A stretch of DNA of 64,000 bases from Octopus sinensis. Lineage: Eukaryota. The DNA lies in contig NW_021833426.1 of NCBI RefSeq assembly GCF_006345805.1, positions 1 through 64,000 of the forward strand. The letters are read 5' to 3'. Positions 21,052 to 61,430 of this stretch are shown piece by piece. The translations under genes were made by a program, and so were the position numbers. The notes beneath the pieces are model-generated. The model saw only the letters and a list, made by a program, of their open reading frames with translations. It did not search any database and had not been told where the DNA came from. Numbering within the stretch: position 1 is the first letter of the stretch; the number at the start of each line of letters is the position of its first letter.

Positions 21052-21241
21052 GGGAGAGTTTACGAAAAAACAAAAGACAAAGACAGGTGGTGTAGAAAAC
21101 AAACAGATGTATTAGTATCACACTCAGGAATAGAAAAAGTCTTTTACGTTTCGAGCCTACACTCTTCTACAGATAGGGACACAGAAAAAAACAAGGAGAG
21201 AAAAAAGATATGTGTAGTGGCTAACGATCTATCATGGCGAC
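21052..21241 (-). mobile_element. Short Penelope-pLTR-like element with minimal hammerhead motif (family A)
   Basis: Minus strand ctgtaga-agagtgtaggctc-gaaac-gta-aaag at 21141-21172; flanked by (TA)n; homologues at 29060 and 34692. Confidence 0.75.
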
Positions 21242-21329
21242 TATATATATATATATATATATATATGTGTGTACTGGCCGTGTTCTAGTATGGCCACAGC
21301 CTTAGGGATGAAACGTATAAAAGAAAAGC

Positions 21330-22370
21330 AACTACCTTTAATCAATTATGACTTAAAATGTCAGTAGCAACTAATCTCTCTAGTTGATTACTTAGATATT
21401 ACCCTAAATTTAAACTTCTCCTCATATAAACCTTTCCATAAGCCTAATGGGAAACTTGCATATATATACATAAACTGTCTTGTCCCCTTCCTGTAATATT
21501 TAAAAACCTGGTAGCTAATATTAGTATCTAACCTCTCTTCTTCCAAAGAAATTTTCGAGAAAGTTGCTCCCTATTATAACAAGGTCCTTATCAATAGTGG
21601 CTTCAAAGATAAATTAATATATAATCCCTCTAATAATAATCAAAATATTAAAAGTAGATCTAGTGCCATCAAAGATAATGTAGTACATAACCACTCTAGT
21701 ATTAATCAGGATAATAAGAAACCTAAAATTAGGCCCAGGAAAATTATTTGGTTCGCCCCACCTTTTCCCTTAATATAAAAACTAAAATTAGTAAAAGATT
21801 CCTGTCTGTCTTAGGCAAACACTTTCCACCCATTCACAGATACAGGAAAATATTTAATAGGCGTTCTGTGAAATTATCATATAGTTGCTGCCCCAATATG
21901 AAAAGTATCATTACACGTGGTCAGTACCAAGAACCTGAATCCAGTTGCGACTGTCGCAACCTAGGATCCTGTTCACTTGACCATCGATGTATGACTAAAT
22001 CTATCATACATGTGGCAGAAGTTACTGCAACCCTAAATAAGAATACAGTTGATACGAAGACCTATATTGGATGAGGTAAAGGTGAACTTTAAAAATCGCC
22101 ATGCCAATTACATAGCCTCCTTCCGAAATAGGGACATGAATAAAGCTACCAAGTTGGCTAGCTACGTATGTACTTTGAAAAATAACCAAACACTGCATGT
22201 GATTAAATGGAAAGTAATTGAGAAATCTATACCTTATGTGAATGGATCGAATAAATGTAAACTTTGTTTTGTTGAAACAGCGCAGATCCTGTTCAGATCT
22301 ATGATCCCTAAATCTATATTGAACTCCAGGTCAGAAATTTTCAGTGGTTGCAATACAATAAAGAATAACT
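21330..22370 (+). mobile_element. Decayed Penelope-like retroelement (Naiad-type): RT C-terminus plus GIY-YIG endonuclease
   Basis: YLDITLNLNFSSYKPFHKPN...WFAPPFS..IKT.ISKRFL..LGKHFP..H...KIFNR..VKLSYSC.PNMKSII...CDCRNLGSC (CxCx5C)...YIG..FKNRH..SF...T.LA...C.LC..E...LNSRSE; several frameshifts and stops. Confidence 0.9.
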
Positions 22371-23466
22371 AAAAGCTATAACTTGAAGAAATAAGATATG
22401 AAAGATTTCCTAGTTAGGTTAAGTTGCATGCTCAACGTCCCTGTTCGCTTAATCATTTGCGAAATTTTGTTTGGGTGCAACCAAATGCACCTCTAAGCAT
22501 TTTTCGAAACATTTGATGCTAGAAAATACCAACATCTTCATAGTATACTCCTTTAAATTTGATATAATGCCTTAATAGAAATTTATCTTTTGCATGGTTA
22601 TATATTCTTATCCTAGTTGTGGTGTTGTTCTTAACTTCCTAGGAGAGTCTGTGACACTAGAGGTGTGTAATTTTGTCTATTAATACTCTTTTACTTGTTT
22701 CAGTCATTCAACTGTGGTCATGCTGGAGCACCGCCCTTAATATTTGTTTTTCTAAAATAAATATCTGTTCTTCTTCGTTGTCTCCAATTTTTATGTTATT
22801 TTCCTGAAGTGGCGTTTAGAAGACACTTACATTATTTATATTGAGTCTTTTTTTGTGCTTCCAACTCGCCGAACGTTTGATAGTTTTCATCCGCAATTAT
22901 TATTTCTTGGTCATCGCGCAATGAAAGTGTGGTACTACAAGTGTGGTACTGTTACCTATTTGTGATAATGAACCTAAAGACATTTCCTTTGCTGTCACCA
23001 AGGTCTTTGCTTTGGAAACTAGAGTTTCTCGTTCATTTTCTTGCTACTGCTGATTTTCATAATTTTTTCTCTTCCGCTGTTTTCACTTAGTCAACCCAGG
23101 TCTGGGAATTCACTCAGCATCCTACTCTGCATCGTTAAGTGCCATAATTCTTCCTTTTCCAACAGAGATCATTTCACCCGATGTCCTGGAGTGTTTGTTC
23201 TATATGCTGACGTGTGGGAACATTGAATCCGCTTTCGTCTTTTTTTTTTCAGGAGAGATATATCACATTTATCTCATCGCTCTCTCTCGTGTAGCTAAGT
23301 ATTGTTGCTGGGTTTTATAAAATTCTCGCATGTACAGTTTTACCTGTAGTTTTACCTGTAGTTTACCTGTAGTTAAAAAACGTCAATCTGTTCATTTACT
23401 GCTAAAGGAAGGTTTGTTTTACACGGCTGTTATATGAAGGGGGTCGTAGTATTTGGAATTAAGTCA

Positions 23467-23857
23467 AGAGTGGCTGTGTGGTAAGTAGCTTGTTTACCAA
23501 CCACATGGTTACGGGTTCAGTCCCACTGCGTGGCACCTTGGGCAAGTGTCTTCTACTATAGCCTCGGGCCGACCAAAGCCTTGTGAGTGGATTTGGTAGA
23601 CGGAAACTGAAAGAAGCCCGTCGTATATATGTATGTATATATATGCGTGTGTGTGTTTGTGTGTCTGTGTTTGTTCCCCTAGCATTGCTTGACAACCGAT
23701 GCTGGTGTGTTTATGTCCCCGTTACTTAGCGGTTCGGCAAAAGAGACCGATAGAATAAGTACTGGGCTTACAAAAGAATAAGTCCCGGGGTCGATTTGCT
23801 CGATTAAAGGCGGTGCTCCAGCATGGCCGCAGTCAAATGACTGAAACAAGTAAAGAG
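23467..23857 (+). mobile_element. SINE group K, full length
   Basis: Matches 12477-12860. Confidence 0.92.
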
Positions 23858-24289
23858 TTGTTAGTATTTTGTTTTACTAATTACTTGAGTATTTGGTTCA
23901 TTTTCTTCTATCAATTGGTCACTACACTACTAATGCTATCCTTTCTTTTGTACATTTTTTTGTGAGTTTTGATTTTGTATTTGTTTTTTTGTTTTTTTTA
24001 ACCATTGTCGTGTTTTGTTACATGGCGTTATTGTGTGTGGTAGACATTTTCGATGTAAGTGAAATTTTTAAAGTTTATTAAACAAACCGTTTCTTTTTTT
24101 TTTTTTATCTATAAATGTCTCCTGCTGGGTATCGAGGGTAGCCTCCTCCTTAGACAATTATAATTCTTTTTACAAGTACCTCTAAGAAAATTCAATTTGG
24201 TGATCCCTAAAATAAAATGTGTTTTGAAGAGAGAGGTAAAACGACGTCTACGTACAATGAATCAATAATAATAATAATAATAATACTAT

Positions 24290-59614: not shown

Positions 59615-59903
59615 GGAGGCGCAATGGCCCAGTGGTTAGGGTAGCGGACTCGCGGTCGTAGGATCGCGGTTTCGATTCCCAGACCGGGCGTTGTGTGTGT
59701 TTATTGAGCGAAAACACCTAAAAGCTCCACGAGGCTCCGGCAGGGGGTGGTGATCCCTGCTGTACTCCTTCACCACTCTTTCTCTCACTCTTTCTTCTGT
59801 TGGCCTGCTCGCTTAGCCAGCGGGGCTGGCGTCATTCGAAGGCTAAAACAATACCAGCGATGTGTAGCAACATCTGATGGTCTGGTCGGTGACGTGATCA
59901 CCT
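59615..59903 (+). mobile_element. tRNA(Arg)-like SINE group R, inserted in (TA)n
   Basis: ggaggcgcaatggcccagtggttagggtagcggactcgcggtcgtaggatcgcggtttcgattccc; 3' part differs from 26002-26368. Confidence 0.88.
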
Positions 59904-60107
59904 GATATATATATATTATATATATATATATATATAAAATAATTCCTGGGTTTATGTCAAAACTTGAAAGAATATTTAGTACTCCACGCCATCAAAACTT
60001 TTTGAGGATTATTTGATTTTTCTCTCCTGTTAGTACAATTCGAAACAACTTGGCATCACATTCCCTTTCAAATTATTCTTATGAGACTAATGGATTAATC
60101 TTTCATT

Positions 60108-60464
60108 CATTTACTTGTTTCAGTCATTTGACTGTGGCCATGCTGGAGCACCGCCTTTTTAGTCGAGCAAATCGACCCCAGAACTTATTCTTTGTAAGCC
60201 TAGTACTTATTCTATCGGTCTCTTTTGCCGGACCACTAAGTAACGGGGACGTAAACACACCAGCATCGGTTGTCAAGCGATGTTGGGGGAGGAGAGGCAA
60301 ACACAACACACAAACATGCACATATATATATATAATATATATATATATATATATATATACGACGGGCTTCTTTCAGTTTCCGTCTTCCACTCACAAGGCT
60401 TTGGTCGTCTCGAAGCTATAGTAGAAGACACTTGCCCAAGGTGCCACGCAGTGGGACTGAACCT
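60108..60464 (-). mobile_element. 5'-truncated SINE group K flanked by about 155-bp direct repeats
   Basis: 59947-60100 matches 60466-60629. Confidence 0.88.
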
Positions 60465-60772
60465 GCTGGGTTTATGTCAAAAATTGAAAGAATATTTAGT
60501 ACTCCACGATATCAAAACTTTTTGAGGATTATTTGATTTTTCTGTCCTGTTAGTATTCCGAACAATTCGAAACAACTTGGTATCACATTCCCTTTCAAAT
60601 TATTCTTATGAGACTAATGAATTAATCTCTGACATTATTCTCAATCGACGGCTCAAGTCTAATCATGTTAATGTTTTCTGTCGCTGGTCTGAACCAGTAG
60701 AGTTCGATCAAACTTGGTATTCTCCTTGTGTCAGTTTTTTGCTTCATAGTTTTATCTGAAAATATTGGTTAT

Positions 60773-61430
60773 AGGCATAGGAGTGGCTGCGTGGTAAGTA
60801 ACTTGCTTACCAACCACATGGTTCCTGGTTCAGTCCCACTGCGTGGTACCTTGGGTAAGTGTCTTCTACTATAGCCTCGGGCTATAGTAGAGTGGATTTG
60901 GCAGACGGAAACTGAAAGAAGCCCGTCGTATATATATATATAGGTAATCCAAACATGAAAACACAAAGAGAAAACAACAACGCGAGGACGTGGAACAAAT
61001 ATAGTATTATTGGACGCTCAGGAAGGAAGGGATGAAGGAGGGCTTAACGTTTCGAGCGGAGCTCTTCGTCGGGAACATAGGAGAAGGGAAGACACAGGAA
61101 AAAAAACATCGCAACGGTACACACGCGGTCACTATATATATTATATATATATATATATATATATATATATATATATAATATATGTTATGTATGTATGTGT
61201 GTGTATATGTTTGTGTGTCTGTGTTCCCCCTCCCGCCCAACATCGCTTGACAACCGACGCTGGTGTGTTTACGTCCCCGTTACCTAGCGGTTCGGCAAAA
61301 GAGACCGATAGAATAAGCACTAAGCTTACAAAGAATAAGTCCTGGTGTCGATTTGCTCGACTAAAAGGCAGTGCTCCAGCATGGCCACAATCAAATGCCC
61401 TGAAACAAAGAGTAAGGAGTAAAGAGAGAG
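60773..61430 (+). mobile_element. SINE group K interrupted in its (TA)n by a hammerhead-motif element
   Basis: Head half 60773-60930, tail half 61190-61430. Confidence 0.88.
60943..61131 (-). mobile_element. Hammerhead-motif element family B
   Basis: Minus strand ccgacga-agagctccgctc-gaaac-gtt at about 61046-61072; homologous to 50619-50788; (TA)n flanks. Confidence 0.75.

What the first reader, a model, noticed from the sequence alone, without database searches (positions are those of the whole stretch)
21052..61131. Two related families of ~180-bp non-coding elements with variant minimal hammerhead cores, located at (TA)n tracts
Seen: five copies (family A at 21052-, 29060-, 34692+; family B at 50619+, 60943-) follow the pattern stem I - C(T/C)G(T/A)NGA - a - gagc hairpin - GAAAC-GTH - stem I, with private substitutions in some copies. 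They share a downstream tgagcg...aatac...ccac block, and all abut or sit inside (TA)n. Two of them split the central microsatellite of a SINE. Known: Penelope-like pLTRs and animal non-LTR retrozymes carry minimal type I hammerheads with a palindromic GAAACGT stem III. Inference: these are non-autonomous elements or solo pLTRs mobilised by a Penelope-like RT/GIY-YIG enzyme. The core changes (CUGUAGA in two A copies, CCGACGA in both B copies, versus canonical CUGANGA) recur between copies, so they may be tolerated variants or RT-recognition structures rather than random decay.
Basis: partly seen in the sequence, partly recalled or inferred. Interest (0 to 1): 0.72.

Follow-up and report, generated by a model that had tools for sequence, protein, structure and literature searches.

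The report
Penelope ends with altered hammerhead cores
The five short repeats are cut-off 3' ends of two very abundant Penelope-type jumping genes that sit in TA microsatellites; each gene line has fixed a change in a normally invariant letter of its hammerhead (self-cutting RNA) motif while keeping the rest, so the motif likely still cuts slowly, but cutting is untested.

Summary
All five copies are real. They are not a separate non-coding element: walking upstream in the genome leads to two autonomous Penelope-like retroelements (RT, CX4CX2C linker, GIY-YIG; units of about 4.4 and 6.2 kb; open frames up to about 1000 aa) that carry the same stretch in both pseudo-LTRs. The window copies are 5'-truncated, privately damaged ends. 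(TA)6 follows 45 of 60 sampled copies (background 6%). The core changes are inherited, not decay. Family A has U at position 6 in 11,935 exact genome matches against 115 with the textbook A; family B gained U4C once. Across subfamilies of A the hammerhead varies only at positions 7 and 17, the two free ones (0 of 34 other columns against 35 of 121 flanking columns), so the fold is still constrained. Cleavage is not shown: such changes weaken hammerheads in vitro, and 5' ends do not pile up at the cut site (2 of 90). Minimal hammerheads in pLTRs are known; A6U was not found in print in my searches. The scan has noted both variants before, in this and other genomes.

The parts
21049..21242 (-). 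Family A 3' end (5'-truncated pLTR copy), subfamily CUGUAGA/GUA; hammerhead 21141-21176 with private stem I and stem II mismatches; TA tracts on both sides
29053..29196 (-). Family A 3' end, subfamily with U6-C7/GUA, truncated just 5' of stem I; hammerhead 29158-29193 with private C3, A13 and stem II changes; (TA)19 on the 5' side
34691..34894 (+). Family A 3' end, CUGUAGA/GUA; hammerhead 34760-34795 with private loss of G12; followed by (TA)20 and a SINE
50619..50799 (+). Family B 3' end, CCGACGA (U4C); hammerhead 50668-50702 with a private deletion at the cut site and 3' strand of stem I; inside the central microsatellite of a SINE
60931..61132 (-). Family B 3' end, CCGACGA/GUU; hammerhead 61042-61076 with private stem I changes; inside the central microsatellite of a SINE
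50334..50992 (-). Host SINE split by the family B copy (halves 50334-50570 and 50819-50992)
   Evidence: blastn with the intact copy at 34928-35330
60779..61408 (+). Host SINE split by the family B copy (halves 60779-60935 and 61178-61408)

Best explanation
The five copies are 5'-truncated 3' ends of two autonomous Penelope-like retroelements whose pseudo-LTR hammerheads carry a fixed A6U (family A) or U4C (family B) change and likely still cut the element's RNA slowly, as dimers. Shown: parent elements, pLTR position of the motif, TA targeting, inheritance of the variants, and conservation of every other hammerhead position across subfamilies. Inferred: the GIY-YIG domain nicks (TA)n; the element's own short UA run at its 3' end would anneal to the nicked target and prime reverse transcription; most events stop after 140-240 nt, leaving these stubs. 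Inferred: a weakened ribozyme is tolerated because most RNA must stay whole for translation and copying, and occasional cleavage would be enough. The local copies are dead remnants.
For: 27 of 30 loci found with the A protein carry the A terminus downstream; 8 of 15 extended loci carry it at both ends, pLTR identity up to 99.0%. 18 of 21 extended B loci carry the B terminus downstream, 4 at both ends. RVT_1 passes Pfam's cut-off for A (E 1.6e-7); DKG, YIDD, CX4CX2C, CCHH motifs present in both. (TA)6 at the 3' junction in 45 of 60 copies against 6% background. U6 in 78 of 78 copies that cover it in a sample chosen without the core; N7 U41/A15/G12/C9, position 17 A51/U31; variable columns 0 of 34 inside against 35 of 121 outside (an earlier sample gave 0 of 34 against 31 of 146 for A and 2 of 33 against 43 of 136 for B). 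11,935 exact matches with U6, 115 with A6 (0.95%), near the 0.69% T-to-A share at other conserved T columns. With position 4 masked, 25 C4 copies plus one U4 copy stand on one side of a 97/89 branch, 15 U4 copies with the older family E on the other. 98% of cells paired, 7 of 9 pairs with two-sided changes over 12 hand-picked rows. U4C is a natural viroid variant that works in vivo and A6C a natural phage variant with low activity (PMC3088659 passages; PMC7151607).
Against: No cleavage was observed; only contig data exist. In a pairwise mutagenesis all single and double mutants of the CUGA turn except the C3-G8 swap had low activity (PMC9901934 passages), and A6C cost a mouse-gut hammerhead several orders of magnitude in Mg2+. 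Minimal PLE hammerheads are already slow with a textbook core (PMC4209133). 5' ends do not pile up at the cut site: 2 of 90 within 3 nt, about 1 expected. Stem I is only 4 bp and has a U-U mismatch in the youngest B line. The predicted lowest-energy folds of monomer and dimer are not the hammerhead fold. Position 17 avoiding G rests on only about four master-line changes, so it is weak alone. Alignment columns share one genealogy, so the Fisher P values (1e-4 to 0.04) overstate independence. Most two-sided pair changes come from family D; between A and B there is one. A strict single clade of all C4 rows is rejected (p-AU 0.0175) because of the one U4 copy nested in it.
Confidence: 0.58

Rival explanations
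1. Same elements, but the motif no longer cuts: the hammerhead-shaped RNA is kept as a binding or docking structure for the element's RT/EN protein or a host factor, and loss of cleavage helped these lines spread.
For: Two independent changes hit the same CUGA turn in the two lines with intact frames and 98-99.6% identical pLTRs, while older relatives (family E, U4 subfamilies of B) have textbook cores. All copies longer than about 130 nt run across an uncut motif; no ends at the cut site. Naiads spread without hammerheads and HHR function in EN+ PLEs is called unclear (PMC8557442 passages).
Against: G8, G12 and the C3-G8 pair stay fixed and only positions 7 and 17 vary in A, the pattern expected of catalysis. 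U4C works in vivo in a viroid. Upstream pLTRs of all 12 full-length tandems reach beyond the 5'-end hot spot and start as identical to the downstream one, which a cleaved and circularised template would explain (a template switch would too).
Confidence: 0.27
2. The motif is a dead relic or a DNA-level promoter element: the variants hitch-hiked in successful master copies and the apparent conservation is short history or promoter constraint, not RNA structure.
For: In D. virilis Penelope the internal promoter lies in the pLTR, downstream of the start site (PMC2377424 passages), and the motif here lies about 70-110 nt downstream of a 5'-end hot spot. Master lineages are few.
Against: Flanks on both sides changed in 20-30% of columns over the same history while the motif did not. 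Along the C4 line the terminus tree sums to roughly 0.4 changes per site with two changes in the motif. A DNA element would not predict freedom at exactly positions 7 and 17, nor the C-G to G-C swap in stem I.
Confidence: 0.1
3. The ~200-nt copies are a distinct non-autonomous (SINE- or retrozyme-like) class transcribed from the pLTR promoter of solo copies and mobilised in trans.
For: 32 of 90 A copies start within a 20-nt zone 96-115 nt upstream of the cut site, 15 of 30 B copies within a 25-nt zone; none of 12 upstream pLTRs ends there.
Against: Short and long copies share subfamily-diagnostic letters; lengths form a continuum up to full length; no tandem head-to-tail arrays typical of retrozymes were seen; the hot spot could be an RT pause or TA microhomology. 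This rival concerns the template of the short copies only and does not exclude the best explanation.
Confidence: 0.3

Closest known systems
Minimal type I hammerheads (min-HHR) in pLTRs of metazoan Penelope-like elements (Cervera and de la Pena 2014, PMC4209133; seen: main text parts 1-2 of 4, supplementary file 2 part 2 of 3)
   Same: Short stem I, unpaired A after A9, G10.1-C11.1, palindromic GAAA-CG-U-H, U-rich flanks, position in both pLTRs, most copies solo and truncated.
   Different: Published consensus is CUGANGAH; the only core variant in the alignment that I read is U3 (mostly with A8). Here CUGUNGA (A) and CCGACGA (B) are fixed. Their descriptor required the textbook core, so it could not have found these.
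Neptune-clade EN+ PLEs (as described in Craig et al. 2021, PMC8557442; seen: passages and supplement searches)
   Same: RT followed by CX2-5CxxC linker and C-terminal GIY-YIG with CCHH, DKG motif, partial-tandem pLTRs, 5' truncation, microsatellite (TA)n bias.
   Different: Long low-complexity 3' UTR (0.35-3 kb) and non-canonical hammerhead cores. Clade placement by tree was not done, so Nematis is not excluded formally.
Natural hammerhead core variants U4C (viroid) and A6C (phage Bcep176) (PMC3088659, passages; PMC7151607, part 1 of 4)
   Same: Single change in the CUGA turn with the rest of the core kept.
   Different: Those are single, tertiary-stabilised ribozymes with measured low activity; here the change sits in a minimal dimer-type motif in thousands of copies, A6 goes to U, and activity is unmeasured.
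Animal non-LTR retrozymes (Li et al., bioRxiv 10.64898/2026.07.22.740005; seen: abstract and section 14)
   Same: Short hammerhead-bearing sequences related to pLTRs.
   Different: Retrozymes are tandem non-coding monomers; these copies are dispersed, colinear with the autonomous element's 3' end and of variable length.

Membership tests
EN+ Penelope-like element | Single ORF with RT and C-terminal GIY-YIG endonuclease linked to the terminus | tested here: met
   Open frames of 963-1009 aa; RVT_1 E 1.6e-7 (A) and 0.002 (B, below cut-off), GIY-YIG below cut-off in both; motifs read directly; relatives at 41-57% identity carry PF00078 and PF01541
EN+ Penelope-like element | Partial-tandem pseudo-LTRs and frequent 5' truncation | tested here: met
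   8 of 15 A and 4 of 21 B extended loci are partial tandems; fixed 3' end and variable 5' end in 60 copies
Neptune clade | CX2-5CxxC linker, CCHH finger, DKG motif, C-terminal EN | tested here: met
   features as given in PMC8557442 passages
Neptune clade | Phylogenetic placement with reference Neptune RTs | not tested
Minimal type I hammerhead | Stems I and II, unpaired base after A9, palindromic stem III remnant, H17 | tested here: met
   stem I has a U-U mismatch in the youngest B line
Minimal type I hammerhead | Invariant core C3 U4 G5 A6 N7 G8 A9 | tested here: not met
   U6 in family A; C4 in 86 of the first 100 listed B matches (counted by hand)
Minimal type I hammerhead | Self-cleavage after H17, as a dimer | not testable with these tools
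   No raw RNA reads; indirect test of 5' ends negative
Non-LTR retrozyme / non-autonomous family | Tandem non-coding monomers with their own master lineage | tested here: not met
   Copies are colinear with autonomous elements and share their subfamily letters; a short-transcript class remains open

The most novel reading that the evidence does not exclude
Penelope hammerheads are tuned down or repurposed: in one genome the two most recently successful lines independently broke the CUGA turn at different positions while keeping the whole fold, because the element needs the structure (slow switch or RT docking site) rather than fast cleavage. The genome then holds matched natural series (textbook-core ancestors, variant descendants, intact young elements) for testing what PLE hammerheads do.
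Probability: 0.3. Interest if true: 0.7.

Novelty: new variant of a known kind. Interest (0 to 1): 0.45.

Why it matters
Hammerheads sit in nearly all C-terminal-EN Penelope-like elements, yet their role is described as unclear (PMC8557442). Here, young elements with intact frames and near-identical pLTRs carry core changes that normally cripple cleavage, next to relatives with textbook cores in the same genome. That makes the question testable with natural sequences. It also shows that descriptor searches fixed on CUGANGA miss some of the most abundant motifs in a genome: about 16,000 A-type anchored matches against 12,388 generic textbook-core matches.

Tried and rejected
Rfam gave no hammerhead match. 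RNA evidence: no RNA holder listed on record; 14 of 20 runs are only guessed to be RNA and all are contigs. Laying 4 of them on a young element showed pieces over the ORF and terminus but no splice or circular joint and cannot show ends or strand. Laying 4 further runs on the terminus listed no other letter at position 6, but also none at positions 7 and 17, so it is uninformative. The idea that the polypyrimidine run before the core is a 3' splice site was not supported or excluded. The idea that the oldest A subfamily has a textbook core was rejected: A6 copies are scattered over all subfamilies and old-type bystander copies carry U6. U4 in family B as mere CpG decay was rejected for 15 of 16 rows. 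Ages from divergence to subfamily consensus are confounded by how loci were chosen and were not used. The pLTR-difference test for circular against linear template (0.71%, 0.41%, 0.71% in three segments) does not discriminate. The ORF tree (29 rows kept of 106 after removing near-duplicates and rows without a terminus) did not resolve the B order. BLASTP of the A and B proteins showed only the N-terminal match; a direct pairwise alignment gave 67% identity over RT-EN. Short loci around B ORFs mostly missed the terminus (1 of 30) because the 3' UTR is longer than 1.5 kb. Luense et al. 2017 (PMC5785218), the largest survey of PLE hammerhead variants, is not held and may already list these cores; per-mutant values of PMC9901934 were not seen; supplement file 1 of PMC4209133 could not be searched. 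Literature searches that did not find A6U or these families; supplement searches. The organism was not established by any search; the words octopus and cephalopod in those searches rest on a recalled resemblance of the SINEs.
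Full report
Observation. The five copies are present as described. Hammerhead spans and element limits are given under parts. Both B copies split a SINE at its central microsatellite. 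Each local copy has private damage, so none is the family's master motif.

What they are. The window lies in a 2.7-Gb animal genome held as G000. Copies of family A share a fixed 3' end followed by TA and differ at the 5' end. Walking upstream led through a low-complexity 3' UTR into an ORF with RT, linker and GIY-YIG motifs. A protein search gave open frames up to 1009 aa; 27 of 30 fetched loci have the A terminus downstream, and 8 of 15 loci extended to 9.9 kb have it at both ends, units 4.3-4.5 kb, pLTR identity 91-99%. The same walk for B gave a second element: 18 of 21 extended loci have the B terminus downstream, 4 at both ends, units 5.3-6.3 kb, pLTR identity 98.5-99.6% in three. The two proteins are 67% identical over RT-EN and show DKG, YIDD, CX4CX2C and CCHH motifs, the Neptune pattern as described in PMC8557442 (passages). 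Pfam: RVT_1 above cut-off for A, below for B; GIY-YIG below cut-off in both. So the finding is the 3' end of the pLTR of two autonomous Penelope-like elements.

Insertion. In 60 copies taken in genome order, (TA)6 or more follows the 3' end in 45 (23 of 30 A, 22 of 30 B) against 6% of flanking positions; it precedes the 5' end in 18. In tandem junctions the element's own end carries only a short TA run, the same in all 8 A tandems, so the long tracts are target DNA. I infer that this short run anneals to the nicked target and primes copying; this was not tested. Most copies are 140-240 nt (24 of 30 A, 19 of 30 B).

The cores. Family A: 11,935 exact matches with U6 and 115 with A6. The A6 copies are scattered over all subfamilies at about the background T-to-A share (0.95% against 0.69%), and old-type bystanders have U6. 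In 90 copies chosen by a 23-mer outside the motif, 78 of 78 that cover position 6 have U; position 7 takes all four letters and position 17 is A or U; no other of 34 motif columns has a second letter at 12% or more, against 35 of 121 flanking columns. Family B: 86 of the first 100 listed matches have C4 and 14 have U4; position 17 is U 68, C 27, A 4, G 1 (counted by hand). With position 4 masked, a tree of 41 termini puts 15 U4 rows, including the older family E, on one side and 25 C4 rows plus one U4 row on the other (97/89); forcing all C4 rows together is rejected (p-AU 0.0175) because of that one row, a likely CpG change. Two further hammerhead-bearing repeats, D and E, have textbook cores. 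By parsimony the ancestor was textbook, and A6U and U4C are two independent changes. Stem I is CUUU/AAAG in A and GUUU/AAAC in B and E; over 12 hand-picked rows 98% of cells pair and slid controls give 28-41%, though most two-sided changes come from family D.

Does it cut? For: only the two catalytically free positions vary in A, and G8, G12 and C3-G8 stay fixed; U4C and A6C are known natural low-activity variants (PMC3088659; PMC7151607). Against: mutants of the CUGA turn have low activity in vitro (PMC9901934); minimal PLE motifs are slow even when textbook (PMC4209133); stem I is weak, with a U-U mismatch in the youngest B line; predicted lowest-energy folds are not hammerheads; and only 2 of 90 copies begin within 3 nt of the cut site, about 1 expected. 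No usable RNA data exist. I put slow cleavage at a little under 0.6, a non-cutting but needed fold at about 0.3, and a relic at 0.1. Column counts are not independent events.

A side result. 32 of 90 A copies start 96-115 nt upstream of the cut site, and B has a similar cluster. All 12 upstream pLTRs of full-length tandems reach further (154-1257 nt). [quoted passage not shown] An RT pause or TA microhomology would also explain it.

Novelty. Solo minimal hammerheads from truncated PLEs and microsatellite targeting are in print (PMC4209133, PMC8557442). I did not find A6U, or U4C in a PLE, in searches or in the supplements read, but the main survey (Luense et al. 2017) could not be read. Unchecked notes of this scan report both variants in this and other genomes; they are not independent evidence. 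Verdict: new variant of a known kind, interest 0.45.

Noticed in passing
L341-L430 (family A), L281-L310 (family B); L133:7670-7690: 5' ends of short copies pile up next to an ATG that is present in all lines, 70-85 nt upstream of the core and followed by a stop within four codons; possible pLTR start site or short upstream ORF.
   Followed up: partly
L133:3460-3490; L201:1985-2010: Tandem junctions are precise and inherited, and carry the element's own short TA run, a possible target-annealing primer site.
   Followed up: partly
L312, L314, L316, L318 and others: Family D: an abundant repeat with a textbook minimal hammerhead (stem I ACAC/GUGU, longer stem II); its parent element was not sought.
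   Followed up: no
L315, L317, L326, L328: Family E: older relative of family B with a textbook CUGAAGA core, also ending in (TA)n.
   Followed up: partly
L151, L158, L159, L160, L212: Several B copies have U3 together with C4 (UCGACGA), in both pLTRs of L212; small subfamily or recurrent change, not resolved.
   Followed up: no
window 63675-63711: Short stretch like the 3' part of family A, possibly a sixth, very short copy.
   Followed up: no
window 3021-3091 (+): tRNA-like Rfam match above the gathering score.
   Followed up: no
L037, L038, L202, L278/L293, L280: A and B copies often sit head to tail in the TA tract of one another, as expected if new insertions target the tracts next to old ones.
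   Followed up: no
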